Origin: a virus
Reading direction: 5' to 3' (one strand)
Length of the DNA stretch: 47,813 nucleotides
IMG/VR virus record: IMGVR_UViG_3300031696_000011
The translations under genes and the position numbers were made by a program. This document shows positions 1-47,813 of this stretch, piece by piece. A model generated the notes under the pieces. That model ran no database searches and was not told the DNA's origin. It saw nothing but the letters and a program-made list of their open reading frames with translations. The stretch's first letter is position 1, and every line of letters starts with the position of its first letter.

Positions 1-127
1 AAACGATTCAGCAAATATACAACCTACGTCCCCGGTGAGAAACTCATCGTGCGACTAGATCCATCCACGTTTGCAATCTCTGACTGCGAGCGTGAGCTTG
101 AGCTAGGCAACCTGTTAGGTTGGGTGG
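1..127. repeat. Left copy of exact 127-nt terminal overlap (identical to 47687..47813)
   Basis: Read directly: bases 1-127 (aaacgattcagc...ttaggttgggtgg) recur exactly as the last 127 bases. An ORF runs through the junction, so the sequence closes into a 47,686-bp unit. Confidence 0.95.
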
Positions 128-4475: not shown

Positions 4476-6930
4476 ACCACTACCCGGTTTCTATTGCGGC
4501 GTGACTTTGGTATTGTCAAAGCCGTCGCGATTCGATATCAAAGAAGACGAGCTAATGACTGGCATCGCTGGGACATTTGTAGACAATTGCCTACACCCAT
4601 ATGCACGTCACGAGATGGACATTCGAACCATCGACGAAGGAACTGAACTATTGCAAGGCACAAAGGTTGTGCTGCTCATGGGCCTAGAGTCGTTACGCTT
4701 TCTTGAACTCAAGGGCGTAAGTCTCAACCAGATGCGAGGCCATCCACATGAGCGCAATGGTGTTGTGTTCATACCAACCGTTCACCCACAAGATACACAA
4801 GACCTACGAGATTATGAAAGTGGTTCTGATCCTAGTATTGTTGATGCTCCTGAAGATAGTCAGAACGTCCAGGAGGAAGCGAACTCTGTTCATGCGACAA
4901 AAAACAAAGCCTCCACTGCGAGACGGAACTACAGATTCTGGTTCAAGCAAGACGTCACGAAGGCATTCCGTATTCTTCGAGATGGACTGACGCAGTATGA
5001 ATGTGTGTATCGGATTCGTCCCGCGGATTTCGTGTTCACCGAATGGGCGAGTGCACAAACTGGCGAGGACATATCGTGCGACATAGAAACCAACCCCGAG
5101 ACGTTGCGAATGACAGTGATCTCATTTGCTACAACAACAAGCGAAGTCTGGTGCATACCAATCACCGACCACAAAGGAGAACTGTGCTATGATATCGAAG
5201 TTACTGCTGAAATTTTTAAATCTATCTGTGGTCTGTTTCGTCGGAATACTATTGTGCTTCATAACGCCAGTTATGATTTGTTTGTATTGGCTTTCATGTA
5301 TCGTATTCCGCCACCACCGTATAGACAAATAAAAGACACGATGCTTATGCATCACCGACTGTTTCCTGATGTGGAAAAATCGCTCGGTCATTGTATCAGC
5401 CTATACACGGACAAGTCATACCACAAAGACGAAGGTATGTTCTTTCCGAAGAACTCAAAGCAAGACCAACAACTGTGGGTGTATAACGCAAAGGACGTTG
5501 AGACCACGTTGCTTGTGTATAACGAACTAAAGCTACGCACCGCTCGCACTCCCGGTGCCGCAGAATCTGGCGAGCAAGCATGTGAATTCATACGCACCTC
5601 GTTGCTGATGACACTACGCGGTGTGCGTGTAGACCACAGTGAACTGATTGCAAAGATCACGGAGCTTGCAGCGCGGATCGGTATCGCGGAGTATAAGATT
5701 CTCCCGATTCTTGTCGGCTACTATATCAACCCGGGTTCGCCGCAACAAGTCGCACGATACCTGTATCAGGATCTCAAGCTCAAGGCGCCGTCTAAAGATC
5801 TGACTGGCAAGAAAACACTATACAGATTCCAGACTCGCAAGTATCGCGCTTCTATTCAAGTGATCCTAGACACTCGCCGTAAGCGCACAGAGATTGGCAA
5901 GCTCAAGTCACGGCTGTATGGCGAAGGTCATACGCGAATAACTGGCGCATACAATATCGCAGGCACCAAATCAATGCGGCTATCTTCCACCAAACTTCTG
6001 GGTGTATGGGGAACGAACATGCAGAACTTCAACAAGAAGATCAAGCGGTTCATCATACCTGATCCGGGAATGGAATTGTGGCAAGTCGATCTCGCGGGCG
6101 TAGAAGCTGTGATCGTGTCACGCCTGACTAGACCGGGCAGTAACTTTCGCGAACTGTTCCGTGTTGGAATCAAGCCGCATGTGTATGTAGGGTTCAGATT
6201 GTTCTACGATCACTGGTGTGAAGTGTTCGACCAAGACCTAAGCGAGCTGCGTGAGTCTGAGATTAAAGACTTAGAGAAGTTTGATGTGTGGAAAGAGTTG
6301 GTCAGTGTGATTAAAGCATCTGACAACGACATTCCGTCACGGCGGTGGTATTACTTTGCAAAGCAGACATGCCATTCCGCGAACTATGGAATCCGCGCAC
6401 CTACGTTTGCAATGAACGTGCTAGACAAATCAGAAGGTGAAGTCGTGCTAGAAGTTCGTGACGCTACACGATTTCTGTCAGTGTATCACTCGCTATTCCC
6501 TGAGATACGTATGGACTTTCAACAAGGTGTAGCTGCGTCGCTTGAATACGACATGACACTTGTGAACTTCTTCGGCTACCCACGACTGTTCTACGGTTCG
6601 TCTGTCAACGACGCTATGCTGCGTGACGGGTATTCGTGGATACCACAATCGACTGGTAGCGGCATTACGGCGCAAGTTGCCGGTGCAGAACTACAAGCCG
6701 AACTAGACGAAGGACGTAGCGAGCTAGAATATTGTATCATGCAAAACAATCACGACTCGCTGATGGGACAAGCTCCTATTGGCACGGGTCAAGCTGTGTG
6801 TCAACGTGTAACAGATGCGATGAACGTCGAACTCACCTCACCGTTCGGTGAACAGTTCAAGCTCAAGTCTGAAGCACAAGTTGGACGTAACTGGAAAGAG
6901 ATGATCGAAGTAGATGTAATTAACAGATAA
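4465..6930 (+). CDS. Family A DNA polymerase with 3'-5' exonuclease and an N-terminal UDG-family-4-like domain
   Basis: Exonuclease motifs: ISCDIETN (Exo I), LHNASYDLFVL (Exo II), YNAKDVETT (Exo III). Polymerase motifs: QVDLAGVEAVIV (A), RRWYYFAKQTCHSANYG (B), QNNHDSLM (C). The N-terminal ~130 aa end in VVFIPTVHPQD, which resembles the UDG motif B HPS. GTG start. Confidence 0.9.
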   Translation: MRTEPLPGFYCGVTLVLSKPSRFDIKEDELMTGIAGTFVDNCLHPYARHEMDIRTIDEGTELLQGTKVVLLMGLESLRFLELKGVSLNQMRGHPHERNGVVFIPTVHPQDTQDLRDYESGSDPSIVDAPEDSQNVQEEANSVHATKNKASTARRNYRFWFKQDVTKAFRILRDGLTQYECVYRIRPADFVFTEWASAQTGEDISCDIETNPETLRMTVISFATTTSEVWCIPITDHKGELCYDIEVTAEIFKSICGLFRRNTIVLHNASYDLFVLAFMYRIPPPPYRQIKDTMLMHHRLFPDVEKSLGHCISLYTDKSYHKDEGMFFPKNSKQDQQLWVYNAKDVETTLLVYNELKLRTARTPGAAESGEQACEFIRTSLLMTLRGVRVDHSELIAKITELAARIGIAEYKILPILVGYYINPGSPQQVARYLYQDLKLKAPSKDLTGKKTLYRFQTRKYRASIQVILDTRRKRTEIGKLKSRLYGEGHTRITGAYNIAGTKSMRLSSTKLLGVWGTNMQNFNKKIKRFIIPDPGMELWQVDLAGVEAVIVSRLTRPGSNFRELFRVGIKPHVYVGFRLFYDHWCEVFDQDLSELRESEIKDLEKFDVWKELVSVIKASDNDIPSRRWYYFAKQTCHSANYGIRAPTFAMNVLDKSEGEVVLEVRDATRFLSVYHSLFPEIRMDFQQGVAASLEYDMTLVNFFGYPRLFYGSSVNDAMLRDGYSWIPQSTGSGITAQVAGAELQAELDEGRSELEYCIMQNNHDSLMGQAPIGTGQAVCQRVTDAMNVELTSPFGEQFKLKSEAQVGRNWKEMIEVDVINR

Positions 6931-17897: not shown

Positions 17898-19522
17898 GCT
17901 TTAACTCCTATCGGCACCGTTGGTTGCGTGGTCTCACCGCTTAGTGTTGCGCTTGCAAGTGACCCTTGAAAGTCCCATTCAATAAACACACCAACTCGTT
18001 TCCCTGCCAGAATGTCCGGTGTTGGTATAACCACACTGACTAAACTTTTCGCATCGCTGCCCGGAAATGGTTTGGTATCAGTAGATACGAATGTCGATGC
18101 CTCAATCGCACGACTTCGTGTCGCAGCTTTCTTTCCATCTACCTGATACGTAGCATAAACCATACCACCGGTTCGAACGTTGTCAAAAGTCAGCGTGATC
18201 TTTTTCGGAACTTGCTGTTGGTCAGGGTGTGCAGCGGTAAAATCACCCAGATAAATCTGTGCACGTTCAACACCATCACCTGCGTCGAACTCATACAGGC
18301 TGTTGTCTTCTGTGATAAATAGCAACCTACGCTTACCTGCCACTTTAATCTCCGAGAACATCTTGATCTGGTCGACACCTTCTAGCGTATCGACTGACAC
18401 AAACCCGTTTGTCTGCTCGTCAAATATCACAACCACAGGCCCGTGAATGCTGTTCATCGCGAACATTCCGTAGTTGTCATGTTTGATCGTGGCGGTAACA
18501 TTCTGGTCGATCTTGCGAAACAACTCATTCACTGATCTTGAAAACGATGCGTTCTGTCCTTCGTTCTTTGTGCTTCTAATCGCATTAAAGCTACGCACAC
18601 CCAACTCGTCGATGAAAGCATTGTCACCTAGCAGCTCCACAAATGAGAACTGATTAAATGCGCCTGTCGAAAACAAGAATGTGTTATTGAATCGTGGCTC
18701 GCCGAAGATTCGCAACTCAGGATTCGGTGTCACAAAATGTGATATGCGTCCCGATGAAACAAAAATCGAATTGTCTTGCAGCCCAACAGAAGCGAGGCAT
18801 GTGATCTTTTCAAAATCAACCGCATGCGAAACTTGCGCCGCACCACCTTCTGCTTCGTTGTCCAGTCTGTTACCATCCGGCTTGATGATAACCATAAAAT
18901 CCAGCGGACGTCCTGTCAACGATCGCAACAGCTTGTTCCCTTCTGCATCGACAATATACAACACACTCCCGCTGTGCACCATACGTGAACCAATAGGCAC
19001 ATACTCACGCTTGTCTGGTGTCCACGACGTATAGCCTTGCGCCAATCGTGCATTCCCTTGCGAGTCAATAATCCACGGCTGGTTGATTCCATCTTGCACG
19101 ACCACAGATTGCGGCGTGCCTGTAATTCCAGACACTAATGTAATCGCATCGCTTGGGTTCGTGCCTGCTTCACGCCCGTGATTCATCGACGACGCAGGCA
19201 CAAGTGCGGCGTAGATATATTCCACATCCGGATCAAGAGCCAAGTTTTTAATCTGGTAGTAGTTAGATCCTTCAATAGCGAAGTTTTTAATCCACGCCTT
19301 GCCGTCGATAAACACCAAACTAAAAACAGACGCTGCGTAGTTCCCTTGGTAGTTACCTTCAGGCAAACCTAACGTCAGCTTCTTGGGCTTGTTGATCGGC
19401 TCAACCAGACCATCTCGCACACGCACATTGAATGCGATAGGATAGAATCCCGGCCGCTTGCCCACTTTACGTGGATGCACACCGAAGTCCAGTCCTGTGA
19501 AATCTTCAATAACGTGTTCCAT
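17894..19522 (-). CDS. Virion structural protein, putative tail tube/nozzle, 542 aa
   Basis: Called on position (after fibre genes, before internal proteins) and size. No motif recognised. Confidence 0.5.
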   Translation of the reverse strand: MEHVIEDFTGLDFGVHPRKVGKRPGFYPIAFNVRVRDGLVEPINKPKKLTLGLPEGNYQGNYAASVFSLVFIDGKAWIKNFAIEGSNYYQIKNLALDPDVEYIYAALVPASSMNHGREAGTNPSDAITLVSGITGTPQSVVVQDGINQPWIIDSQGNARLAQGYTSWTPDKREYVPIGSRMVHSGSVLYIVDAEGNKLLRSLTGRPLDFMVIIKPDGNRLDNEAEGGAAQVSHAVDFEKITCLASVGLQDNSIFVSSGRISHFVTPNPELRIFGEPRFNNTFLFSTGAFNQFSFVELLGDNAFIDELGVRSFNAIRSTKNEGQNASFSRSVNELFRKIDQNVTATIKHDNYGMFAMNSIHGPVVVIFDEQTNGFVSVDTLEGVDQIKMFSEIKVAGKRRLLFITEDNSLYEFDAGDGVERAQIYLGDFTAAHPDQQQVPKKITLTFDNVRTGGMVYATYQVDGKKAATRSRAIEASTFVSTDTKPFPGSDAKSLVSVVIPTPDILAGKRVGVFIEWDFQGSLASATLSGETTQPTVPIGVKA

Positions 19523-22976: not shown

Positions 22977-23378
22977 TTATTTCAGCGGGCTTTTAAGTTT
23001 GGCCGCTTCTGTAATCACGTTACTCAGTCGCTCTTCCGTGGCAACACCCTTGGCTTTCACACCCGAGTCGTTCTTGTATGTTCCCTTTCGGTTACCAACA
23101 AGCTCGTCAGCTTTGCTCTTTGCAATAATGCTCAAGCCTTTTGCCCGCGACAAGTCAGCAACATCCACGCTATACGCGTTCGTAGTGTAGTATGTGATCT
23201 TATATAGTTCACCATTCGTATAGTGAACCTCAAGAGCTGACACATTGTTTGTTCCGTCTTTGGGGAACTTAGCATGGAAACCAGACTCCTGACCATACCA
23301 TAGTCCACCGCAACCCGTTAGCATCGCAGCAGCAACCGCCACCGCAGCTATGATTAGTTTTTTATTTATCTTTTTCAC
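22977..23378 (-). CDS. Lipoprotein, 133 aa (lipobox LTGC)
   Basis: N-terminus MKKINKKLIIAAVAVAAAMLTGCGG is a signal peptide II with a lipobox. GTG start. Confidence 0.7.
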   Translation of the reverse strand: MKKINKKLIIAAVAVAAAMLTGCGGLWYGQESGFHAKFPKDGTNNVSALEVHYTNGELYKITYYTTNAYSVDVADLSRAKGLSIIAKSKADELVGNRKGTYKNDSGVKAKGVATEERLSNVITEAAKLKSPLK

Positions 23379-23389
23379 AATGTCCTTGT

Positions 23390-23405
23390 AGCAATTCGCA
23401 TGCCA
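23390..23405 (-). promoter_or_regulatory. Sigma-54 type -24/-12 promoter candidate (TGGCATGCGAATTGCT)
   Basis: The minus strand reads TGGCATG-CGAA-TTGCT with canonical GG/GC spacing. It fills the 30-nt gap between the stop at 23409 and the GTG at 23378. Confidence 0.6.
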
Positions 23406-26722: not shown

Positions 26723-28024
26723 CTAGGCCGCAACCCTAGTCCGACGGAATATAACCGCGAATGCATGACGACGATTCACAGGCAGAATCCCGTGAACGGT
26801 GTCGGCAATAAGCTGCACGAATTCACCGTATTTATTCGTCTCCAACACCGGAGTTCCTGCTGTGCCGTAGTTCACGAGGAAGTCCGAAGTAAGGCGAACC
26901 TCACCATTCCAGCGAAGCTGGGAGAACTTCCGCGCATCCATACGACCTGTTCCGAATTCTTTGGGAGGTGCGCCAACGTCGATTGACTCATACGCACCAC
27001 CACCAATGCAGAATGCAACCTCGAACGGTGCATCGACATACGCAGGATTCGGAATCGTCTCGCCCAAGTTGAACGTGCCACCAACGGCATTCTCAATCTG
27101 CGGCGCAGGAAACTCTCCACCTGCGTCAATACGCAACGGGAAACGTTCCGTCTTCCAAACTCCCTTGCTTCCGATCAGACCAGAAAAGTCCTCACCGGTG
27201 TAGTCCTTGTCGTTGGATCGCAACGCAAGAACGTTCGCATCGTGCTCGAAGTATTCGAATGCTTCGTTCGAACCGACCCAGCACAGTTTGCCCTTGATCG
27301 TTTCGTTCGGAGAAGGCATACCTTGCATCTGTTCGAAACCAGGCATCTGCAAGTCCTCGGTCGCAATCGTCTGCGCCTTCTTGGCGAGGTTGAACTTCAA
27401 CGCACCAGAAGCTCCAGCAGGGATCTCTGCAATCGCACCTTGAATCCACGCCGTAGTTTTCGCAGCAGTTCCAGCGATGTTGCCAATCCCAGACGGTGCA
27501 GCAACAAAGTCATCACCGATGTATCCGCCAGTAGTCGTGGTGCTCTTACCAGCAAGCAACACATACGGGCAGTAATGAAACAGCATTGTGCGAATGAACT
27601 GATCGTTCGCAATCGCAATCTGCTGAGTGAGGTCCGCCATGTTGTGCGGAATTTGCTGGCGACGAAAGTCCGCGAACGAACCATTGAAACGAATATACTT
27701 CGTCTCATACTGATGCCTGTAAACAACCGCATCTTCAGTCCGCTCACCAGTTTGATGCACGTCACGATTCGGTGCCGCGGCAGTGATCGCATTGGGGAAG
27801 AACTGCTGACGACCAACAGGACTGAACTCAGCGTTGACACCTTTCAGTGTATCACCCTGATTCGCTTCCCATTTTCGTTTGCCGAAGAGTTTGTTGAACA
27901 CATGCCATCGCGGAAACAATCGCGAGGACATCAGCGCCAAATGATATGGCAGCTTGTTATAGAGCGTAGTGCTCTGTGAATCCCAGATATCTGGGGTTTT
28001 GGGTAGATCGTATGTGCTAGGCAT
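26723..28024 (-). CDS. Major capsid protein (positional call), 433 aa
   Basis: Gene order is TerL-portal-small ORF-scaffold-this gene. It has its own promoter-like element upstream and a hairpin downstream. Size is typical of HK97-fold coat proteins. Confidence 0.7.
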   Translation of the reverse strand: MPSTYDLPKTPDIWDSQSTTLYNKLPYHLALMSSRLFPRWHVFNKLFGKRKWEANQGDTLKGVNAEFSPVGRQQFFPNAITAAAPNRDVHQTGERTEDAVVYRHQYETKYIRFNGSFADFRRQQIPHNMADLTQQIAIANDQFIRTMLFHYCPYVLLAGKSTTTTGGYIGDDFVAAPSGIGNIAGTAAKTTAWIQGAIAEIPAGASGALKFNLAKKAQTIATEDLQMPGFEQMQGMPSPNETIKGKLCWVGSNEAFEYFEHDANVLALRSNDKDYTGEDFSGLIGSKGVWKTERFPLRIDAGGEFPAPQIENAVGGTFNLGETIPNPAYVDAPFEVAFCIGGGAYESIDVGAPPKEFGTGRMDARKFSQLRWNGEVRLTSDFLVNYGTAGTPVLETNKYGEFVQLIADTVHGILPVNRRHAFAVIFRRTRVAA

Positions 28025-28201: not shown

Positions 28202-28217
28202 AGCACATACCATGCCA
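28202..28217 (-). promoter_or_regulatory. Sigma-54 type -24/-12 promoter candidate (TGGCATGGTATGTGCT) upstream of the capsid gene
   Basis: The minus strand reads TTGGCATGGTATGTGCTT, matching the plus-strand element at 44186-44203 at 16 of 18 positions. It is intergenic, directly after a terminator. Confidence 0.65.
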
Positions 28218-28231
28218 ACGCTGCAAGCAAG

Positions 28232-28265
28232 AAAAAAAGGAACACCCATTTCTGAGTGTTCCTTT
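28232..28265 (-). terminator. Intrinsic terminator after the scaffold gene
   Basis: Perfect 10-bp stem aaaggaacac (28236-28245) / gtgttccttt (28256-28265), followed on the minus strand by a run of 7 T. Confidence 0.75.
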
Positions 28266-31745: not shown

Positions 31746-33356
31746 TTAGTTTCGTGTTGCGCCCATGTAACCGTAGACTGGTGCAGATTTTCGCGACTCT
31801 CCGCGCGCGTCTACGCCAGAGAAAGAATATTTGCTTTTATCGTATTCCGCAATAATATCTTTAGTGGTTCTGCGACGAAGCAGACGTGAATTTTTAACTA
31901 GGTGTTCGTTTGAATAGAGCGGGTATTCCTTATCAGCAAGAGCAAGAACTGTGCCATCAGCACGGTCAGGAGATCCGTGACCTTTCGCACGTGCAACACG
32001 TTTTGACTCAAGCACAATTTTTCCGTGAACCGCGCCTTGCATATAGTATCGTGTCGCAAGTTGCCGCTTGAGTGCGTCGTCGTCGAACAACACAAGGTCT
32101 AGGTTCTTGAGGAATATTGCAAAGTTAAACCACATCTCTGCGCCGCGATTACCGTATGTCGAATTGTCAATCGCCCGCGCTTGGTTCAATACTCGGTTAA
32201 CTTGAAACCCGTCCTTCCACAACTGATCTATCATAGACTTGCCCACGCCGCCGTCGTCAGCGTTGATATTTTCTGGCGGAATCTTATACCTATTTATCAA
32301 ACCCTTCACATGATCCACCGCATCGGTCGTGTCGTCATACCTAAAGCAAGGCATCGCAATCTGTTTGTTGCCATCAAATATACTGAACACATTTTCGTCA
32401 CCTCCCGCCGCAAGATCAAGCCCACCGTATCGTATGCCTGTCGGTATCACAACCGGAGGTTTTCGATACGCGCGCATGACCTCTTCAAATGTCATCACTA
32501 GCATCTCGTCTATGCTACAAAATTCGGCTAGGTATGCAGACCTAAACCACGCGGAATTTTCACCGAATCGTTCTCGCGCTTCGTCTACTTCGTCCTGTGA
32601 TATGTGCGGACAGTCACGATACGTGACTTTGAACCGATGCCAACGCTCTGACTCGAAACAACCATAGAAATGCCCGGATGGGGAACCTGGTGAAGACACA
32701 TCCAACCGCCGAGTGAGATTATTACACCGGGCGAGAGCTTCGAAAATGGGCTCCGTGACAGTTTTTGCTTCGTCAACAAAGATTGCAAATTCGCCATCGG
32801 GTCGGAGAGTGTGATAACCTTCAGCCAAGCCCGCGTCGTCGGTAGCAAAGAGTTGGATCTTAGATTTGGTTGGGATAAATGTGAGACTGCGGTAGTTGAT
32901 CTTCCAGAGGATTTCGCCATGGAGCTCATTGATAAATCTGCACAGCCGTGAAACTGCGTAGAAGGTTTGTCTGTCAAGTTGCGTGCCTGACGCGGAAGTA
33001 ATCACACAATTCGCTTCCACGTGCGCCATCGCAAGCCACACTGCACACGGTGCAATTAAAAACTGCGATTTTCCCGAACCATTGTTCGCGCACGTCGCAA
33101 TACGCAACACTTTATCCGGCAGCTTGCCATGTGCAAACAACGTCATGACTTGAATCTGCCATGTGTGCACTTTTACGTCGTGATCGCGGATGTATGGGTC
33201 GTAGATGTGCAACAACATCAACGGATCTTTGATCTTGAACCCATTTGCGCCAGCCCAACCCTTCGCATCGGTAATCGACGCTTTAGGCAAGCGCGATTCC
33301 TGGTCGACAGTGGCGTTTTTGATCTGTGCTTCTACTGTTTGTCGAAAAGGCGCCAT
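31746..33356 (-). CDS. terL: Terminase large subunit
   Basis: Walker A-like CANNGSGKSQF. Walker B FAIFVDEA. C-terminal RNase H-like nuclease Asp motifs GGLDLAAGGDENV, ADDGGVG and SPDRADG. Confidence 0.85.
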   Translation of the reverse strand: MAPFRQTVEAQIKNATVDQESRLPKASITDAKGWAGANGFKIKDPLMLLHIYDPYIRDHDVKVHTWQIQVMTLFAHGKLPDKVLRIATCANNGSGKSQFLIAPCAVWLAMAHVEANCVITSASGTQLDRQTFYAVSRLCRFINELHGEILWKINYRSLTFIPTKSKIQLFATDDAGLAEGYHTLRPDGEFAIFVDEAKTVTEPIFEALARCNNLTRRLDVSSPGSPSGHFYGCFESERWHRFKVTYRDCPHISQDEVDEARERFGENSAWFRSAYLAEFCSIDEMLVMTFEEVMRAYRKPPVVIPTGIRYGGLDLAAGGDENVFSIFDGNKQIAMPCFRYDDTTDAVDHVKGLINRYKIPPENINADDGGVGKSMIDQLWKDGFQVNRVLNQARAIDNSTYGNRGAEMWFNFAIFLKNLDLVLFDDDALKRQLATRYYMQGAVHGKIVLESKRVARAKGHGSPDRADGTVLALADKEYPLYSNEHLVKNSRLLRRRTTKDIIAEYDKSKYSFSGVDARGESRKSAPVYGYMGATRN

Positions 33357-34735: not shown

Positions 34736-34751
34736 AGCAATTCCCATGCCA
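34736..34751 (-). promoter_or_regulatory. Sigma-54 type -24/-12 promoter candidate (TGGCATGGGAATTGCT) at the head of the late operon
   Basis: The minus strand reads TGGCATG-GGAA-TTGCT with correct GG-N10-GC spacing. It sits at the upstream edge of the ~26-kb minus-strand gene array. Confidence 0.65.
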
Positions 34752-35151
34752 TGCTTCCGTGCGTCGTTTCGTGTACCACGTTTTCACAATCAAATATGTC
34801 AAGTCGATTCGTAATTTTGGTCATTTTGTAAGATATACACTGTTCGGATGCCGAACTCAGATCGGGCTTTTTATTTCCGCGGCGTAGGATTAGATCGCCT
34901 AATGGTTAGCATAAGGAAAACTAATCATAAGTGAATTACTTATATATGTTAAGCGCGCGGGAAGTTAATACATACGCCAAGCGGGGACGCCGTGAATCCT
35001 TAACAACTTTGGTTAGGAATTGAATCGCCAGTGTGAAAACCCTAGAAAATCGCCGGAGGATCAGAGAGCACGACGAGAGGGCAAACATGAAACGCATATG
35101 TCTTTTCAGAATATCCGGTTTGGTCTGGGGAATGGGCGGTTACTCTTTTCC

Positions 35152-35182
35152 GTGGAATGTGAAGAGAACCTTTCCATTCCAC
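35152..35182 (+). repeat. Hairpin element R1 containing the 18-nt repeat gtgaagagaacctttcca
   Basis: 8-bp arms gtggaatg (35152-35159) / cattccac (35175-35182). The 18-mer at 35159-35176 recurs exactly at 35306-35323. Confidence 0.8.
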
Positions 35183-35305
35183 CCCCCCGCTCTCGAATGG
35201 GCAAATGGGCAATTCCACATTAAAGAGGATTTAATAAAAAAAACATATATACCAAATACTCTCTTTTGTGGTCTACCAAAGTTGCTAACAGTCGACGGAG
35301 AAGTA

Positions 35306-35334
35306 GTGAAGAGAACCTTTCCACATTCCACATT
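35306..35334 (+). repeat. Second copy (R2) of the 18-nt repeat, followed by tandem ccacatt-ccacatt
   Basis: Exact 18-nt match to 35159-35176, with flanking ttccac similarity. Confidence 0.8.
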
Positions 35335-35409
35335 CTCTCCCTTGTCCCTTGTCCGGTTCATGGTTCATACGGTTCCACGCTTTGCTTTGATTCACGCCAG
35401 AGGATGAAG

Positions 35410-35503
35410 GAATGAAGGAGCGGGAGAGTGAAGGAGCGCACGACGCAAGGGAATGGACAAGGGAAGGAGCGCGGAGAATGGGAGTGAATGAAGGAGCGCG
35501 GAG
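35410..35503 (+). repeat. Direct repeats: GAAGGAGCG x4 (35414, 35430, 35463, 35490); 14-mer gaaggagcgcggag x2; 13-mer gaatgaaggagcg x2
   Basis: Counted directly in the sequence. A fifth degenerate copy, aaaggagca, is at 35521. Confidence 0.85.
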
Positions 35504-35612
35504 GTAATAGGTAAAGGGGAAAAGGAGCATGGGAAAAGAATCAGAAGAAAAAGCGAATAGGGGTTGACGGGAAAAGGGAAAGAGTCCATTCTCTCCGTGT
35601 CGCCAATTGGTG

Positions 35613-35637
35613 ACCCGGATTTATCCGGTTGTTTTTT
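35613..35637 (+). terminator. Weak intrinsic terminator candidate
   Basis: 5-bp GC-rich stem ccgga / tccgg (35615-35619 and 35624-35628) with loop ttta, then ttgtttttt. Confidence 0.35.
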
Positions 35638-35861
35638 GACAGGTTCGCAGTTGAGACGGTTTCCATGAAACCAGATTGACTAGAACAAATTGAATAGGTG
35701 AAAGGAAAACCTTTCACGCCGGTGGAGTATCGGCACAAGTCCTAAGCTTGCGAATGAGTTCATTGCCTTCGAAAATTCAGGGTTACAAGCCAAAGTAGAG
35801 TTGTGTCTAACGTTCAAGATCGGCGGTGAAATGGAATGGCCGGAAACTTAGAGAAATTGGG

Positions 35862-35890
35862 TTTACATAGGAGAATCTCTGGATTCTAAT
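35862..35890 (+). promoter_or_regulatory. Sigma-70 type early promoter candidate (TTTACA-N17-TCTAAT)
   Basis: -35 TTTACA at 35862-35867, a 17-nt spacer, and -10 TCTAAT at 35885-35890, directly upstream of the first plus-strand gene. Confidence 0.5.
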
Positions 35891-38994: not shown

Positions 38995-39010
38995 TGGCAT
39001 GGTTCTTGCT
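38995..39010 (+). promoter_or_regulatory. Sigma-54 type -24/-12 promoter candidate (TGGCATGGTTCTTGCT)
   Basis: TGGCATG-GTTC-TTGCT sits in the 78-nt gap between the genes ending at 38989 and starting at 39068. It matches the consensus TGGCACG-N4-TTGCW at all but one position. Confidence 0.65.
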
Positions 39011-42779: not shown

Positions 42780-43200
42780 TACAGACCTGACCAAAGAAGA
42801 GATTGCGGACGGCGACGACTACATTGCCGAGACAATCGCGCAACAAGCGCGAGACAAAGCTGCGGCAAAGAAACCACCAGCACGACAGCTTGAATTGTAT
42901 GTGATCTTCGCGTGGAAGACACCGCAGTATAGGCTGCACGAATGGTGTCAGACTGGTGAGACGGCACCTAACGACTCTCAGTGTGTGCATTGTGATCGCA
43001 CGATGGGTGACGCTGATGATCGTGTATGTGATTCAGGCATGGCTGGTGCGCTTGGTGGATGGAACGACTACAAAGGTGGTAGTGGAAACTTCGGCATTGC
43101 GATGTTGAAGTGGCAGACATTGAAAGCGCAAGGACATAACAACTGTCAGGTGTTGAACATACACAGCGGCAAGCTAGAGTTGGAGGTGTATGATGCTTAG
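42772..43200 (+). CDS. Hypothetical protein, 142 aa
   Basis: 8-nt overlap with the upstream gene. Contains CVHCD...C Cys residues. Confidence 0.5.
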   Translation: MSDTDLTKEEIADGDDYIAETIAQQARDKAAAKKPPARQLELYVIFAWKTPQYRLHEWCQTGETAPNDSQCVHCDRTMGDADDRVCDSGMAGALGGWNDYKGGSGNFGIAMLKWQTLKAQGHNNCQVLNIHSGKLELEVYDA

Positions 43201-44176
43201 CACAGAGGAGTTGGCGCGGATAAATGAGGCGACCAAACGGCAAGCGGCAACTGTTGAAGCGAACAAGGCGCGGTTGCTAAATCAACCACCGAACCCTAGC
43301 GGAGTGGATCACGGTGCGATCAAACGTAAGCTAGAAAAGATGGGACTGTTTGAGTTGGCGAATGATCTCAAGGTCTGTCGTCCAGCAAGTCTTGCTTCGC
43401 TTGATGAGTTTATCACAGATGACGCGGCGATGTTGCGGCTCAAGAAACAGGTTGAGTATCTGTGCGAGATGGATGACCCAGTGTTGATTCACGGTGAGAG
43501 TGGGACAGGCAAGGAGTTGATAGCTCGTGCGTTGCATGGACGAAAGTCAGCGCCGTTTATCGCAGTCAACACGACAGCACTACCACTTCATCTGATGGAG
43601 AGTGAGTTATTTGGTCATGCGAAAGGATCATTCACCGGTGCAGATGCGAACAAGATCGGGATACTTGAAGGCGCAGGTAACGGGACTGTGTTTCTGGATG
43701 AGATAGGTGACATGGAGTTGACGCTGCAATCGAAGTTGTTGCGTGTGTTGCAAGAGAAAGTAATCAGACCTGTCGGCACGAATGCTGAGCGTGAGATACA
43801 TTGTCGAGTAGTGGCAGCCACGCATCAGGTGATACGACGTGAGGAAACAGTTCATGGAACTAAGTCAGTCACGTGGAAGAAAGGTTTCCGTCAGGATTTA
43901 TACTGGCGTCTTGCTACACACACGCTTCACATCTCACCGCTTCGTGATCGTCCAGATGATATCCGTGAGATACTAGATGCGGTCATAGATCCTGACCAAC
44001 GATTGCCTGAATCATTCCGTGACGAGATGGTAACGATGCAACTGGAAGGCAACTTCCGTGAACTCAATGCGTTGTGTCAGCGTAAGTTTCTTGCAATGAA
44101 AGTGGACGATACGCAGGGTGAACTTTATATACCCGGTGTTGTGACACACGCAGCCTACGTCCACACAAAAGAGTAA
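43190..44176 (+). CDS. Sigma-54 interaction-domain AAA+ ATPase (minimal bacterial enhancer-binding protein; no sensory domain or HTH seen)
   Basis: VLIHGESGTGKELIARALH (Walker A), FGHAKGSFTGA (GAFTGA loop, nt 43625-43642), GTVFLDEIGDM (Walker B), LQSKLLRVLQE, FRQDLYWRL, ISPLRDRPDDI and GNFRELNA. About 95 aa precede the module and about 30 aa follow it. Confidence 0.9.
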   Translation: MMLSTEELARINEATKRQAATVEANKARLLNQPPNPSGVDHGAIKRKLEKMGLFELANDLKVCRPASLASLDEFITDDAAMLRLKKQVEYLCEMDDPVLIHGESGTGKELIARALHGRKSAPFIAVNTTALPLHLMESELFGHAKGSFTGADANKIGILEGAGNGTVFLDEIGDMELTLQSKLLRVLQEKVIRPVGTNAEREIHCRVVAATHQVIRREETVHGTKSVTWKKGFRQDLYWRLATHTLHISPLRDRPDDIREILDAVIDPDQRLPESFRDEMVTMQLEGNFRELNALCQRKFLAMKVDDTQGELYIPGVVTHAAYVHTKE

Positions 44177-44186
44177 CGCAACCTGT

Positions 44187-44202
44187 TGGCACGGTATGTG
44201 CT
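44187..44202 (+). promoter_or_regulatory. Sigma-54 type -24/-12 promoter candidate (TGGCACGGTATGTGCT)
   Basis: TTGGCACG-GTAT-GTGCTG begins 11 nt after the activator gene's stop and lies 28 nt upstream of the ATG at 44230. Confidence 0.65.
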
Positions 44203-44229
44203 GTATAAGAACTGTCCACCTCCCCGAGT

Positions 44230-44463
44230 ATGAACAAGAAAATATTTAGAAATTCTGTCGGCTGGATTGTTCTGGTATGGAATCGTGCTGACTGGGAGTT
44301 CATCGCAGTCCATGAGAACGGTTGCTGTAAGGACATACCGTGGACAGCAGTGGAAGAGAAAGATAAAAGTCTTGCGATTGATACGATCATCGGCAAGCTG
44401 ACAAGACGTGAGTTCAAATACCAACAAGAACTCCAACAAGATTTGCCCAACGCTACTTCGTAG
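44230..44463 (+). CDS. Hypothetical protein, 77 aa
   Basis: First ORF after the promoter-like element. Confidence 0.5.
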   Translation: MNKKIFRNSVGWIVLVWNRADWEFIAVHENGCCKDIPWTAVEEKDKSLAIDTIIGKLTRREFKYQQELQQDLPNATS

Positions 44464-44523
44464 CACGGCATTAACAAACGAGCATAATGCTCATCGACAA
44501 GAACAGTTAGAAAAAGCAAAGTT

Positions 44524-45171
44524 ATGAGTAACGAAGCCGCAGACCAAAACGTTGAGACCGAAGTTGCCGATGCCCCGGCACAAGCCATCGACCTGAGCAA
44601 CGACAGCGCTGCTGAAGCGAACAAAGCCGTGGTCATCATCGACCCTGAGACTGGTAAGGACAACACTTACCTGACTGACGACGACGGCGACAACTACTTG
44701 GAGTTCGAAGGACTCCGTGTGTATGTCACCACATTCGGCGGCGCATTGAAGGGTGTGCTGTATCACTACAAACAGTTCACCTCGCTTGACAAGGCGATTG
44801 AAGTGCACGGCGCAGACAAAGTCCTCGCTGCGTTGAACGACAACCTGAATGCCGGAACCCGTAACAAGGTGAAGTCGTCCAAGATTCCGAAGTTCGACGA
44901 CAGCAAGGCGCAGGAGTCCGCGATTCGCACGATGCTTACGGAACATCCTGTTCAGTTCACCATCAACGAAGCGATTCGTTACGAGCCGGGTGAGCGCGAT
45001 CAGACGTCTGGTCAGATCCTCGCCGTGCTGAAGGCAGCGCAGAAGGATGGTGTCGGAACGACCAAGATCGCCGCGATCATGCAGCGTTTGATGGCCGTGA
45101 TGGCGAAGGAGAACTTGCGTCGTGGTATCGACGACGGACAGGTTCACGTTGCCGACGACGACGAGCAGTAA
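44524..45171 (+). CDS. Acidic hypothetical protein, 215 aa
   Basis: Clean ORF with acidic termini (ends DDGQVHVADDDEQ). A strong terminator follows. The long antisense ORFs are compositional shadows. Confidence 0.65.
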   Translation: MSNEAADQNVETEVADAPAQAIDLSNDSAAEANKAVVIIDPETGKDNTYLTDDDGDNYLEFEGLRVYVTTFGGALKGVLYHYKQFTSLDKAIEVHGADKVLAALNDNLNAGTRNKVKSSKIPKFDDSKAQESAIRTMLTEHPVQFTINEAIRYEPGERDQTSGQILAVLKAAQKDGVGTTKIAAIMQRLMAVMAKENLRRGIDDGQVHVADDDEQ

Positions 45172-45183
45172 GAAGTCACATGT

Positions 45184-45214
45184 TGGGGAGGACATCCACT
45201 CCCCAGCATTTTTT
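45184..45214 (+). terminator. Intrinsic terminator
   Basis: 7-bp stem tggggag (45184-45190) / ctcccca (45199-45205), followed by gcatttttt. Confidence 0.75.
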
Positions 45215-45318
45215 AAATCGAACACACTAGCAAGCACAACGCAATGGCGATTTCGTTTATTGGTTTAGCTGGATCGCAGGTCGTGACTAAACACCATGAT
45301 GTTAGTGTGTTCGATTTA
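45214..45318. repeat. 16-bp perfect inverted repeat (taaatcgaacacacta / tagtgtgttcgattta) enclosing 73 nt
   Basis: Arms at 45214-45229 and 45303-45318, extendable to 18 of 19 bp. Located between a terminator and the gene at 45342. Confidence 0.85.
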
Positions 45319-45341
45319 GAAAATGCAAACAGGAAATAGAT

Positions 45342-45995
45342 ATGAGTATTGACCCAATCAAGTTAGCGATAGGTGACAATGAAGGCCACGAAGGTCAGTG
45401 GAAGCAACGCAGGTTGAAGCGTAGCACATACACGGTGAAGAATGCAATGAAATTTCAAGCATACTTTGACCTGTCTATACGTGACAAGAAGCCTGTGTTG
45501 ATACCAGCAAGACCATACAATGTGAAGCTAGACACGTTGTATAAAAAGGTATGCGATGGTTTGTTGTGGCTAGTGCAGAACATGCAACAAGGTGCAGCGC
45601 AGCAAGCGTATGCGTTGCTCAAGTCGCAGTCGCAGTTTACTAGAGTCGAGGGACATGCAGGCGGCGTGAAGATTACATGGGATGTGCACGAAGAGATACT
45701 TTCACCAGAATCAATCAAAGCTGTGACAGGTGTTGCGCCTGTTGGGATATTACAATCAGCTACGACGCAAGAGCAGATGTCGGATGCAGTAGCGGACATC
45801 AAACAAGTCGGGTTGACTGACAGAATCAGGACGCATCTGGAGAGCACAAGCGACACTGGTATATTCAACGAGCAAGGACTGAACCTGTCACCGGAAAAGG
45901 TGCGGGACATAGCGCGACTTCTCACAGACGCAGGTGTGCCACCGGCATTGGCTGTGATCGAACCGACGCAAGTAAGATTCTTCAAACCATCGTAA
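45342..45995 (+). CDS. Hypothetical protein, 217 aa
   Basis: Preceded by an aggaaatagat-ATG SD-like site. Confidence 0.6.
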   Translation: MSIDPIKLAIGDNEGHEGQWKQRRLKRSTYTVKNAMKFQAYFDLSIRDKKPVLIPARPYNVKLDTLYKKVCDGLLWLVQNMQQGAAQQAYALLKSQSQFTRVEGHAGGVKITWDVHEEILSPESIKAVTGVAPVGILQSATTQEQMSDAVADIKQVGLTDRIRTHLESTSDTGIFNEQGLNLSPEKVRDIARLLTDAGVPPALAVIEPTQVRFFKPS

Positions 45996-47681: not shown

Positions 47682-47813
47682 GCCTTAAACGATTCAGCAA
47701 ATATACAACCTACGTCCCCGGTGAGAAACTCATCGTGCGACTAGATCCATCCACGTTTGCAATCTCTGACTGCGAGCGTGAGCTTGAGCTAGGCAACCTG
47801 TTAGGTTGGGTGG
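47678..47813 (+). CDS. First ~45 codons of the same Cas4-like nuclease gene (continues at base 1..954)
   Basis: The ATG at 47678 overlaps the TGA of the preceding gene (ATGA). Reading MSLKRFSKYTTYVPGEKLIVRLDPS... joins frame 1 at base 1 through the 127-nt overlap. Confidence 0.7.
   Translation, partial: MSLKRFSKYTTYVPGEKLIVRLDPSTFAISDCERELELGNLLGWV
47687..47813. repeat. Right copy of exact 127-nt terminal overlap
   Basis: Identical to 1..127. A length of 127 nt is what a k=127 assembler leaves on a circular contig. Confidence 0.95.

What the first reader, a model, noticed from the sequence alone, without database searches (positions are those of the whole stretch)
44187..44202. Sigma-54 promoter directly downstream of the activator gene, driving the next plus-strand unit
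TTGGCACG-GTAT-GTGCTG starts 11 nt after the stop of the activator gene and lies 28 nt upstream of the ATG at 44230. It is the only element here with the full TGGCACG -24 box. The unit it would drive (44230..45171) ends at a strong terminator (45184-45214).

This makes a compact module of promoter, two genes and terminator next to the regulator gene.
Basis: partly seen in the sequence, partly recalled or inferred. Interest (0 to 1): 0.65.

Follow-up and report, generated by a model that had tools for sequence, protein, structure and literature searches.

The report
Phage sigma-54 promoter beside its activator
A marine phage carries its own stripped-down activator for the host's sigma-54 RNA polymerase, and the sequence right after that gene is very probably a sigma-54 promoter, kept at this spot across a large group of uncultured phages, for which I found no published description.

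Summary
TGGCACGGTATGTGCT lies at 44187-44202. It has the GG/GC doublets 12 nt apart and one mismatch to the sigma-54 consensus. It starts 11 nt after the stop of a 328-aa gene with a Sigma54_activat domain (E 1.6e-53) and ends 28 nt before the ATG at 44230.

The window is a complete phage genome of about 47.7 kb. It holds six consensus-grade sites (0.09-0.86 expected); five are intergenic and co-oriented with the next gene.

Relatives give the decisive evidence:
- 13 of 23 non-redundant phage-type activator genes have a near-perfect sigma-54 motif within -30 to +60 nt of their stop, same strand (0.004 expected per window).
- Only 1 of 79 cellular activator loci does.
- An approximately 85%-identical Tara Oceans relative changes 4 of the 16 bases, all at low-information positions.

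The module of promoter, small ORF, p215-family gene and terminator recurs in the closer relatives.

The activator has only an AAA+ domain and no DNA-binding domain, and no shared upstream element was found. Activation from solution is therefore inferred.

The functions of the two driven genes, the host, and the promoter's actual activity remain untested. I class this as a new variant of a known kind.

The parts
43190..44176 (+). Phage-encoded sigma-54 activator (bEBP), 328 aa. It is AAA+-only, with a 70-aa N-terminal extension of unknown function and no C-terminal HTH.
   Evidence: Pfam Sigma54_activat E 1.6e-53 over residues 75-246. Solved bEBP AAA+ domains align with residues ~72-321. Motifs GESGTGKE, GSFTGA, FLDEIGDM and GNFREL are present. 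NCBIfam matches cover only the central domain, and all fall below the equivalog cut-offs.
44187..44202 (+). Sigma-54 (-24/-12) promoter core TGGCACGGTATGTGCT. GG is at 44188-44189 and GC at 44200-44201. The start site is inferred at about 44212-44214.
   Evidence: 19.1 bits, fourth of six sites. Its positional homolog in L081-L083 is TGGCATGGTTCCTGCT. A motif next to the activator stop is conserved in 13/23 phage clusters against 1/79 cellular loci. De novo 5-mer enrichment of TGGCA and TTGCT with a fixed 12-nt offset.
44230..44463 (+). p77, the first gene of the unit: a small protein of unknown function in a positionally conserved family of 69-90 aa.
   Evidence: An ORF of the same size sits in the same place in L081, L079, L078, L084, L085 and L076. 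The relatives are alike (blastp down to 1e-10). The window-type protein (its L081 copy) links to them only weakly, E 0.038. 84% aa identity to the L081 copy, with dN/dS 0.33 in frame. No Pfam, PHROG, NCBIfam or PADLOC hit.
44524..45171 (+). p215, the second gene of the unit and the conserved cargo of this promoter across the phage group. Function unknown; acidic C-terminal tail.
   Evidence: tblastn finds homologs directly downstream of the promoter in 39 IMG/VR loci. HMMER finds 47 proteins at E<=0.001, of which 44 plus the query were aligned. AF2 model pLDDT 87 with no fold neighbour in PDB or BFVD.
45180..45215 (+). Intrinsic terminator closing the unit.
   Evidence: 11-bp stem (6 GC), 8-nt loop, then TTTTTT. 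Identical in L081 apart from one loop base. Terminator hairpins also follow the p215 homolog in L079 and L084.
38995..39010 (+). Second plus-strand sigma-54 promoter, TGGCATGGTTCTTGCT. It lies upstream of the block 39068 ... helicase ... activator gene.
   Evidence: 26.6 bits, the best site. Positional homologs at L081 6451, L084 6217, L085 5885 and L079 1563.
34736..34751 (-). Sigma-54 promoter at the head of the leftward (structural/packaging) gene block.
   Evidence: 21.0 bits. The identical 16-mer is at L081 2032(-). Homologous sites are at L084 2109(-) and L085 1745(-).
28202..28217 (-). Sigma-54 promoter TGGCATGGTATGTGCT, upstream of the 433-aa gene 26723-28024. It differs from the target site by one base.
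   Evidence: 21.8 bits. It is preceded by a terminator-like hairpin and T7 run at 28232-28262, read from the sequence.
23390..23405 (-). Sigma-54 promoter upstream of the distal leftward genes (22977-23378 and onward).
   Evidence: 17.4 bits. It is intergenic and co-oriented.
31941..31956 (-). Intragenic sigma-54 motif near the 3' end of the terminase-like gene, 200 nt upstream of the next gene. Candidate only.
   Evidence: 18.5 bits. It lies inside ORF 31746-33356.

Best explanation
The site at 44187-44202 is a working sigma-54-dependent promoter of a lytic-type phage.

**Proposed mechanism.**
1. Host RNA polymerase carrying host sigma-54 binds the GG(-24)/GC(-12) element as a closed complex.
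2. The phage's own activator, the product of 43190-44176, is made from the gene ending 11 nt upstream. It is an AAA+-only protein without a DNA-binding domain.
3. The activator hexamerises, contacts sigma-54 through its GSFTGA loop and uses ATP to open the promoter. It acts from solution rather than from an enhancer.
4. Transcription starts near 44212-44214, runs through p77 and p215, and stops at the terminator at 45180-45215.

**Wider context.** The same activator would fire the other sigma-54 promoters:
- 38995 (+), which feeds the helicase-activator block and so gives positive feedback.
- 34751, 28217 and 23405 (-), which drive the packaging and structural genes.

Appearance of the activator would therefore be the temporal switch of the phage.

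**Shown here:** the motif, its statistics, its conservation in place, the activator's domain content, and the conserved gene cargo and terminator.

**Inferred:** use of host sigma-54, enhancer-independent action, the start site, the timing, and the feedback loop.
For: **Motif and statistics**
- Near-consensus motif with correct spacing.
- Six sites against 0.09-0.86 expected. Five are intergenic and co-oriented with the downstream gene.

**Activator**
- Adjacent gene is a bEBP.
- All catalytic and sigma-54-contact motifs are conserved in 21 phage homologs.

**Conservation in relatives**
- 48 of the 57 loci with a short (158-320 aa) activator ORF, and 13 of 23 clusters at <=70% identity, carry a near-perfect motif within -30..+60 nt of the activator stop on the same strand. 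Background is 0.004 per window.
- Control set of 79 cellular bEBP loci: 1 hit.
- Assumption-free 5-mer count: TGGCA in 14/23 windows, TTGCT in 13/23, with offset exactly 12 in 13 of 14.
- In the ~85%-identical Tara relative, 4 of the 16 motif bases differ, all at positions of low information, while TGGCA..TGCT is intact.

**Driven unit and other promoters**
- The unit of promoter, small ORF, p215 homolog and terminator is seen whole in L081, L079 and L084, and in part in L085 and L078.
- The other promoter positions, 38995 and 34751, are also conserved.

**Activation from solution**
- No DNA-binding domain and no shared upstream motif.
- A truncated AAA+-only DctD activates sigma-54 promoters promiscuously without an enhancer (PMC3844500).
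- FleT is a natural bEBP lacking both the regulatory and the DNA-binding domain (PMC7175178).
Against: - No transcript, 5'-end or reporter data exist. The phage is known only from metagenomes.
- The host is unknown, so the presence of rpoN cannot be checked.
- The -12 element is GTGCT rather than TTGCT.
- The site scores fourth of six.
- The motif evolves faster than its flanks between the window and L081: 4 of 16 bases against about 8% nearby.
- There is no terminator between the activator gene and the promoter. p77 and p215 would therefore also be read through from upstream, and the promoter may add only a boost.
- In L084 and L085 one or two small ORFs separate the activator gene from the motif. 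In 10 of 23 clusters no motif lies next to the stop. Adjacency is therefore common but not obligatory.
- The 70-aa N-terminal extension could be an unrecognised DNA-binding or regulatory module.
Confidence: 0.8

Rival explanations
1. The site binds sigma-54 holoenzyme, but its main role is as a gate or roadblock. A stable closed complex parked at the 3' end of the activator gene would block read-through from the upstream operon until the activator accumulates. It would insulate the downstream genes rather than chiefly initiate transcription.
For: - There is no terminator between the activator stop and the motif.
- In L079 and L078 the motif overlaps the last codons of the activator gene.
- Sigma-54 holoenzyme forms stable inactive closed complexes, and many intragenic sites exist in E. 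coli (abstract of PMC4591121, listed).
Against: - The motif is always oriented with the downstream genes.
- In the marine relatives it is followed by a 60-76-nt leader and the p215-type gene, as expected for a promoter.
- The other five sites sit at operon heads, where no read-through needs blocking.
- The two roles are not exclusive.
Confidence: 0.07
2. The promoter is real and sigma-54-dependent but is fired by a host enhancer-binding protein or a host signal. The phage AAA+ protein would have another task, for example remodelling a different target.
For: - Sigma-54 promoters can be activated promiscuously by any bEBP AAA+ domain from solution (PMC3844500).
- The function of the phage protein is untested.
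Against: - Phage-type activator genes and these motifs co-occur and are adjacent in relatives down to about 40% activator identity.
- The sigma-54-contact loop G(S/A)FTGA is almost invariant in the phage clade.
- There is no upstream enhancer-like repeat for a host DNA-binding activator.
Confidence: 0.06
3. The motif is recognised by something other than sigma-54, such as an undetected phage-encoded specificity factor or DNA-binding protein. Its resemblance to the -24/-12 consensus would be coincidental.
For: - Most phage proteins here have no recognisable family, so an unknown factor cannot be excluded.
- The host is unknown.
Against: - The match covers both sigma-54 elements, with the exact 12-nt offset in 13 of 14 relatives.
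- The pattern of variable and fixed positions mirrors the known sigma-54 information profile.
- The only regulator consistently encoded beside it is a bEBP, a family dedicated to activating sigma-54 holoenzyme (PMC7175178).
Confidence: 0.04
4. The site is a chance match with no function.
For: A single 16-mer with one mismatch is expected about 0.9 times in this window.
Against: - Six sites occur against 0.86 expected.
- The site is conserved in position across relatives, against 1 of 79 control loci.
Confidence: 0.02

Closest known systems
FleT of Rhodobacter sphaeroides, and engineered AAA+-only activators such as DctD250 and PspF(1-275)
   Same: - The activator consists essentially of the sigma-54-interaction AAA+ domain.
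- It has no HTH DNA-binding domain and no recognised regulatory domain, so it would activate from solution without an enhancer (PMC7175178; PMC3844500).
   Different: - It is encoded by a phage and forms a large natural clade of 240-330-aa proteins.
- It has a variable 40-90-aa N-terminal extension.
- Its presumed targets are phage genes, whereas FleT acts with FleQ on flagellar genes.
- Direct homology to FleT was not tested.
PspF and the pspA promoter (group 4 bEBPs, PspF and HrpR/S)
   Same: - A bEBP without a cis regulatory domain.
- Its activity would be set by its amount or by partners acting in trans.
- A compact regulator-promoter pair sits at one locus (PMC7175178).
- The AAA+ domain aligns over PspF 8-236.
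   Different: - PspF has a C-terminal HTH and binds upstream sites; the phage protein does not.
- Here the promoter lies downstream of, and co-directional with, the regulator gene, 11 nt after its stop. It is not divergent from it.
FlgR (Helicobacter/Campylobacter) and CtcC (Chlamydia), group 5 bEBPs
   Same: Natural sigma-54 activators that lack the DNA-binding domain (PMC7175178 Table 1).
   Different: They keep a phospho-receiver domain and are controlled by a kinase. The phage protein has no receiver domain.
Phage late-gene switches: T4 gp55/gp33/gp45, P2 Ogr, Mu C, lambda Q, and the SPO1 sigma cascade
   Same: A phage-encoded factor made early redirects host RNA polymerase to a distinct class of phage promoters and so times the structural genes. 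T4 late transcription is treated in PMC2988020, listed. The other systems are cited from general knowledge.
   Different: The phage supplies neither a sigma factor nor a DNA-bound activator nor an antiterminator. It appears to supply only the ATPase that unlocks a host alternative holoenzyme, sigma-54. Eight full-text searches found no description of this for a phage.

Membership tests
Sigma-54 (RpoN) -24/-12 promoter | GG and GC doublets exactly 10 bp apart (12-nt offset) | tested here: met
   GG at 44188-44189 and GC at 44200-44201. The same offset is seen in 13 of 14 relatives.
Sigma-54 (RpoN) -24/-12 promoter | Match to the extended consensus TGGCACG-N4-TTGCW | tested here: met
   11 of the 12 specified positions match; the mismatch is G for T before TGC.
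Sigma-54 (RpoN) -24/-12 promoter | Upstream of, and co-oriented with, a gene at a plausible distance | tested here: met
   28 nt from the end of the motif to the ATG at 44230. The inferred leader is about 17 nt.
Sigma-54 (RpoN) -24/-12 promoter | A cognate AAA+ activator is available | tested here: met
   The adjacent gene 43190-44176 has the Sigma54_activat domain.
Sigma-54 (RpoN) -24/-12 promoter | Upstream activator-binding sites (enhancer) about 80-150 bp upstream | tested here: not met
   No k-mer is shared by the upstream regions of the six sites beyond random controls. This is expected if the activator has no DNA-binding domain, and it is not required for enhancer-independent activators.
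Sigma-54 (RpoN) -24/-12 promoter | Conservation of the element in relatives | tested here: met
   with the negative control.
Sigma-54 (RpoN) -24/-12 promoter | Sigma-54 is present in the cell, and initiation depends on RpoN and ATP hydrolysis, starting about 11-12 nt after the GC | not testable with these tools
   The host is unknown. No sigma-54 domain was found among the 38 window ORFs scanned against Pfam, so a host factor is assumed. No transcript data exist.
Bacterial enhancer-binding protein (clade 6 AAA+) | Sigma54_activat domain above Pfam's gathering score | tested here: met
   181.3 bits against a cut-off of 20.2.
Bacterial enhancer-binding protein (clade 6 AAA+) | Walker A, Walker B, the GAFTGA L1 loop, the R-finger region and sensor II | tested here: met
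   GESGTGKE, FLDEIGDM, GSFTGA (A to S, the commonest form in the clade), RVLQE and GNFREL. All are conserved in 21 phage homologs.
Bacterial enhancer-binding protein (clade 6 AAA+) | C-terminal HTH (Fis-type, PF02954) DNA-binding domain | tested here: not met
   The AAA+ alignment runs to about residue 321 of 328. PF02954 is absent from the short phage-type homologs but present in most of the long cellular ones. Most relatives end within about 10 residues of sensor II.
Bacterial enhancer-binding protein (clade 6 AAA+) | N-terminal regulatory domain (receiver, GAF, PAS, V4R) | tested here: not met
   No Pfam or NCBIfam match covers residues 1-70. The extension is variable across the clade.
AAA+-only bEBP (FleT-like) | Lacks both the regulatory and the DNA-binding domain | tested here: inconclusive
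   This holds for the 241-300-aa relatives. The window protein has an unassigned 70-aa N-terminus that could hold a small unrecognised module.
AAA+-only bEBP (FleT-like) | Specific sequence relationship to FleT | not tested
   No FleT sequence was compared.
Intrinsic (Rho-independent) terminator | GC-rich hairpin followed by a U-tract | tested here: met
   An 11-bp stem at 45180-45209 followed by TTTTTT.

The most novel reading that the evidence does not exclude
The tight, conserved placement of the promoter is functional. In many clusters it lies 2-45 nt after the stop of the activator gene, and it sometimes overlaps the gene's last codons.

The activator has no DNA-binding domain. The promoter nearest its site of synthesis would therefore see the highest local concentration, through coupled transcription and translation, and would fire first.

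Its cargo, p77 and the orphan-fold p215, would be the commitment factors of the switch. They might, for example, withdraw core RNA polymerase from sigma-70 or assist sigma-54 holoenzyme.

An enhancer-less activator would thereby gain promoter preference from gene order alone.
Probability: 0.12. Interest if true: 0.85.

Novelty: new variant of a known kind. Interest (0 to 1): 0.62.

Why it matters
Sigma-54 transcription is normally seen as a cellular stress, nitrogen and motility system controlled by DNA-bound enhancer proteins. Here a whole clade of uncultured, largely marine phages appears to run much of its programme on host sigma-54, including the packaging and structural genes. The phages bring only a minimal ATPase of 240-330 aa.

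If confirmed, this would:
- Add a new strategy to the known ways phages time their genes.
- Provide many natural examples of enhancer-independent activators. A 2020 review lists FleT as the only bEBP lacking both accessory domains (PMC7175178).
- Offer compact activator-promoter pairs for synthetic biology.
- Predict that these phages are restricted to rpoN-carrying hosts, which helps host assignment.

It also flags two conserved orphan proteins, p77 and p215, as the most consistently sigma-54-driven phage genes.

Tried and rejected
**Relatives among sequenced phages**
- DNA search of the region against 50,697 phage records found no relative.
- tblastn of the activator hit only mis-filed bacterial contigs and unannotated metagenomic fragments below 46% identity.
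- tblastn of a p215-type protein found nothing.

**Function of the two driven genes**
- Pfam, PHROGs, NCBIfam and PADLOC gave nothing for p77, p215 or p217.
- A profile search of the p215 family against PDB sequences gave only low-complexity TPR and designed-helix matches to the C-terminal helices.
- Fold searches of the confident p215 model found no hit at E<=0.001 in PDB or BFVD.
- An SSB-like role was considered because of the acidic tail and the position in the replication module. No OB-fold match supports it.
- The p77 structure from a single sequence had pLDDT 48 and was unusable.

**Searches that could not be run or gave nothing**
- The search for related loci with the p215 alignments failed because no stretch was conserved enough.
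- The word-index homolog search for p215 found only itself.
- An exact-match search for the L079 contig in GTDB genomes found nothing.
- The activator search in genomes returned only generic cellular bEBPs, which were reused as a negative control.

**Other promoter types, enhancer and RNA families**
- No shared upstream enhancer motif.
- E. coli-type sigma-70 scans were at or below chance.
- Bacteroidota-type TTTG/TAnnTTTG promoters were not enriched.
- Rfam found no family.

**Literature**
- Eight literature searches found no paper on phage-encoded bEBPs or phage sigma-54 promoters.

**Discarded result**
- One dN/dS figure, for the last 200 codons of the activator, is invalid because indels misalign it. 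I ignore it.

Full report
**1. What is in the sequence**

Positions 44187-44202 (+) read TGGCACGGTATGTGCT.
- GG (44188-9) and GC (44200-1) are offset by 12 nt. This is the defining geometry of sigma-54 promoters.
- The 16-mer has one mismatch to TGGCACG-N4-TTGCW.
- The upstream ORF 43190-44176 stops at 44174-44176, 11 nt before the motif.
- The next ORF starts at 44230, 28 nt after the motif.
- An intrinsic terminator follows ORF 44524-45171: an 11-bp stem at 45180-45209 and then TTTTTT.

Its remark that this is the only full TGGCACG box holds only among the credible sites. TGGCACG also occurs at 6780, 11137 and 20705 in poor contexts.

**2. Context: a complete phage genome with six such sites**

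- The first 127 bases of the window are repeated exactly at its end. The unique sequence is therefore 47,686 bp and represents a complete genome.
- Plus-strand genes run from about 35.9 kb through the end and on to 8.7 kb. They include a helicase, DNA ligase, PD-(D/E)XK nuclease, an AAA_24 protein, DNA polymerase A and DUF3987.
- Minus-strand genes from 34.7 kb down to 8.7 kb include a terminase-like protein, whose homolog in L085 hits Terminase_6N, and tail-like proteins.
- The a-priori consensus with at most 1 mismatch occurs 6 times against 0.86 expected; none of 100 shuffles reached 6.
- TGGCAYR-N4-KTGCT occurs 6 times against 0.09 expected.
- Five of these six sites are intergenic and point at the next gene: 38995(+), 44187(+), 34751(-), 28217(-) and 23405(-). 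The sixth, 31956(-), lies inside the terminase-like gene.

**3. The neighbouring gene is a sigma-54 activator without a DNA-binding domain**

- ORF 43190-44176 hits Pfam Sigma54_activat at E 1.6e-53.
- It aligns with the AAA+ domains of FleQ, NtrC1, ZraR, LuxO, FlrC and PspF over residues ~72-321 of 328.
- It carries GESGTGKE (Walker A), FLDEIGDM (Walker B), the sigma-54-contact loop as GSFTGA, and GNFREL (sensor II).
- Nothing follows sensor II that could be an HTH.
- NCBIfam models match only the central domain and stay far below their equivalog cut-offs.
- Twenty phage-type homologs are built the same way: a variable N-terminal stretch of 40-90 aa, the AAA+ domain, then the end.
- In the large protein database the short relatives lack PF02954 (HTH_8) and PF00072. 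Most of the long cellular ones have them.
- No upstream motif is shared by the six promoters beyond what random regions give.
- No sigma-54 domain was found among the 38 window ORFs scanned against Pfam.

**4. Comparative evidence**

This is the main result.

*Anchored on the activator.* IMG/VR yielded 72 loci with relatives of 35-52% identity.
- Of the 57 loci whose activator ORF is short (158-320 aa), 48 carry a near-perfect sigma-54 motif close to the stop codon on the same strand, 2-45 nt after it in the IMG/VR loci. Loci with long, cellular-type activators do not.
- After clustering at 70% identity, 13 of 23 clusters have the motif within -30..+60 nt of the stop. Background frequency in the same loci is 0.004 per such window.
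- As a negative control, 79 cellular bEBP loci from bacterial genomes (median ORF 492 aa) give 1 hit.
- Without assuming any motif, the most enriched 5-mers around these stop codons are TGGCA (14/23 against 3.5 expected), TTGCT (13/23 against 2.6) and ATATA (13/23 against 2.1). The TGGCA to TGC offset is 12 in 13 of 14 cases.

*Close relatives.* Tara Oceans contigs L081-L083 have an activator 93% identical in protein and are about 85% identical in DNA.
- The homologous site reads TGGCATGGTTCCTGCT.
- Four of the 16 bases differ from the window. All are at the positions known to be weakly constrained: position 6, the spacer, and the base before TGC.
- TGGCA and TGCT are intact.

*Other promoters.* They are also conserved in position.
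- 38995(+) corresponds to sites just before the gene preceding the helicase in L081, L084, L085 and L079.
- 34751(-) corresponds to the head of the leftward block in L081 (identical 16-mer), L084 and L085.

**5. What the promoter drives**

- In the marine relatives the motif is followed by a 60-76-nt leader with a hairpin, and then a gene of about 135 aa homologous to residues 73-194 of p215.
- In the closer clade a small ORF of 69-90 aa lies between the promoter and the p215 homolog, as in the window. This clade comprises L081, L079, L078, L084 and L085, with activators 50-93% identical.
- In L085 an extra 115-aa ORF lies between the small ORF and the p215 homolog, and the locus ends inside that homolog.
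- A hairpin terminator follows the p215 homolog in L081, L079 and L084.
- The small ORFs of the relatives form one family (pairwise E down to 1e-10). The window-type p77 links to it only weakly (E 0.038, through its L081 copy).
- The window and L081 copies are 84% identical. Their dN/dS is 0.33 in frame, against 0.78 and 1.39 in the other frames, from few substitutions.

The function of both genes is unknown.
- HMMER found 47 proteins at E<=0.001 for p215. Two long multi-stretch hits were left out of the 45-row alignment.
- The family has no Pfam, PHROG, NCBIfam or PADLOC match.
- The model is confident (pLDDT 87): a five-stranded sheet followed by helices, with an acidic tail.
- It has no fold neighbour in PDB or BFVD.

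**6. Mechanism**

*Shown:*
- a consensus-grade -24/-12 element conserved in place next to a phage bEBP gene;
- an AAA+-only bEBP with an intact sigma-54-contact loop;
- a conserved cargo and terminator;
- further conserved sites at operon heads.

*From the literature:*
- bEBP AAA+ domains suffice to activate sigma-54 promoters from solution, promiscuously and without an enhancer, though less efficiently than enhancer-bound proteins (DctD250; PMC3844500).
- Natural bEBPs lacking the DNA-binding domain exist (FlgR, CtcC). FleT was listed in 2020 as the only one lacking both accessory domains (PMC7175178).

*Inferred:*
- Host E-sigma54 occupies the phage promoters as closed complexes.
- Once the phage activator is made, it opens them all.
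- The activator would first be made by transcription entering from the unidentified early promoters near 35-36 kb, and then from the sigma-54 promoter at 38995. Only one weak terminator-like site (44068-44084, inside the activator gene) lies between 38995 and the end of that gene.
- The site at 44187 starts transcription at about 44212-44214 and gives p77 and p215 their own strong, terminated transcript.
- The leftward promoters turn on the packaging and structural genes.

I put 0.8 on the central claim that this is a functional, sigma-54-dependent promoter activated by the phage protein.

**7. Rivals**

- *Gate or roadblock.* This role for the closed complex is compatible with the absence of a terminator before the site and with motifs that overlap the activator's last codons. 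It does not explain the operon-head positions of the other sites.
- *Activation by host bEBPs.* This is possible in principle, but it does not explain the co-inheritance and adjacency of the gene and the site.
- *A non-sigma-54 reader of the motif.* This is unlikely, given the fixed spacing and the substitution pattern.
- *Chance.* This is excluded.

**8. Comparison with known systems, and novelty**

- The site is a member of the sigma-54 promoter class on every sequence criterion that could be tested. RpoN dependence and the start site could not be tested.
- The protein is a bEBP by its AAA+ criteria, but it fails the DNA-binding-domain and regulatory-domain criteria of the classical three-domain architecture. 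It resembles FleT and truncated PspF or DctD.
- As a phage timing device, it works like T4 gp55/gp33/gp45, P2 Ogr, Mu C or the SPO1 sigma factors. It differs in supplying only the ATPase for a host alternative holoenzyme.
- Eight full-text searches found no paper describing phage-encoded bEBPs or phage sigma-54 promoters.
- The INPHARED collection holds no cultured relative.
- PHROGs has the activator family only as 'unknown function' (phrog_7998).
- Absence from a literature search is not proof of novelty. I rate this as a new variant of a known kind.

**9. Limits**

- All evidence is computational.
- The host is unknown. Only 9 of 48 ORFs have even a weak Shine-Dalgarno core, which is a hint and not an assignment.
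- The early promoters are not identified.
- The transcription source of the genes beyond the terminator at 45215 is not identified.

Noticed in passing
window 1-127 and 47687-47813: An exact 127-bp repeat at both ends. The window is a complete genome of about 47,686 bp, either a circular assembly or one with direct terminal repeats.
   Followed up: partly
window 45206-45232 / 45300-45326 (spacer 45172-45345): Right after the terminator, a 27-bp-stem inverted repeat spans the spacer before gene 45342 (RNA fold z = -7.35). The 180-nt stretch aligned (45165-45345) is about 98% identical to L081, against about 85% for the genome. One arm change (A to G) would keep a G-U pair. No sigma-54 or sigma-70-like promoter was found here, so how the downstream replication genes are transcribed is unexplained.
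   Followed up: partly
window 34830-35890: A non-coding control region of about 1 kb lies between the divergent gene blocks. It holds four GAAGGAGCGC-type units at 35410-35499 (an exact 14-nt repeat runs to 35503), an exact 18-nt repeat GTGAAGAGAACCTTTCCA at 35159 and 35306, and several inverted repeats. It is a candidate for the origin and/or the early promoters.
   Followed up: partly
window 28202-28262 (-): A terminator-like hairpin (GGAACAC...GTGTTCC plus T7, 28232-28262) is followed 14 nt later by the sigma-54 site at 28217-28202. The 433-aa gene 26723-28024 lies downstream and may be the major capsid gene, which is a guess from its position. The scan tool missed the hairpin because its loop is 10 nt.
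   Followed up: partly
window 38995-39010 (+) through 44176: The activator gene lies downstream of another conserved sigma-54 promoter, with only one weak terminator-like site in between. This suggests positive autoregulation.
   Followed up: partly
window 6780-6795 (+) and 18152-18167 (-): Two weak extra sigma-54-like sites. TGGCACGGGTCAAGCT lies at the 3' end of the DNA polymerase gene. TGGTATGGTTTATGCT scores 14 bits and is intragenic.
   Followed up: no
whole window: Only 9 of 48 ORFs have even a 4-nt Shine-Dalgarno-like core upstream, and the upstream regions are A-rich. There are no tRNA genes. This is a possible hint to a host with SD-independent initiation. Bacteroidota-type promoter motifs are not enriched.
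   Followed up: partly
L002 6727-7000 and L003 5368-5650: In one relative clade the sigma-54 motif after the activator gene is followed by a leader of 260-268 nt before the next ORF. The leader may hold a non-coding RNA or a small unannotated gene.
   Followed up: no
L013, L018, L020, L022, L024 and others, 15-45 nt downstream of the motif: The marine relatives share a hairpin (such as CTGGCCCCAATCTGGGGG) at the 5' end of the inferred transcript, and a TTATATA box right after the -12 element.
   Followed up: no
P0051 (activator of L085), alignment A6 columns ~255-300: Some phage activators, including the window's to a lesser degree, carry an insertion between the sensor I region and the FRxDLYWRL helix. 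In P0051 the insertion is Cys/His-rich and looks like a zinc ribbon.
   Followed up: no
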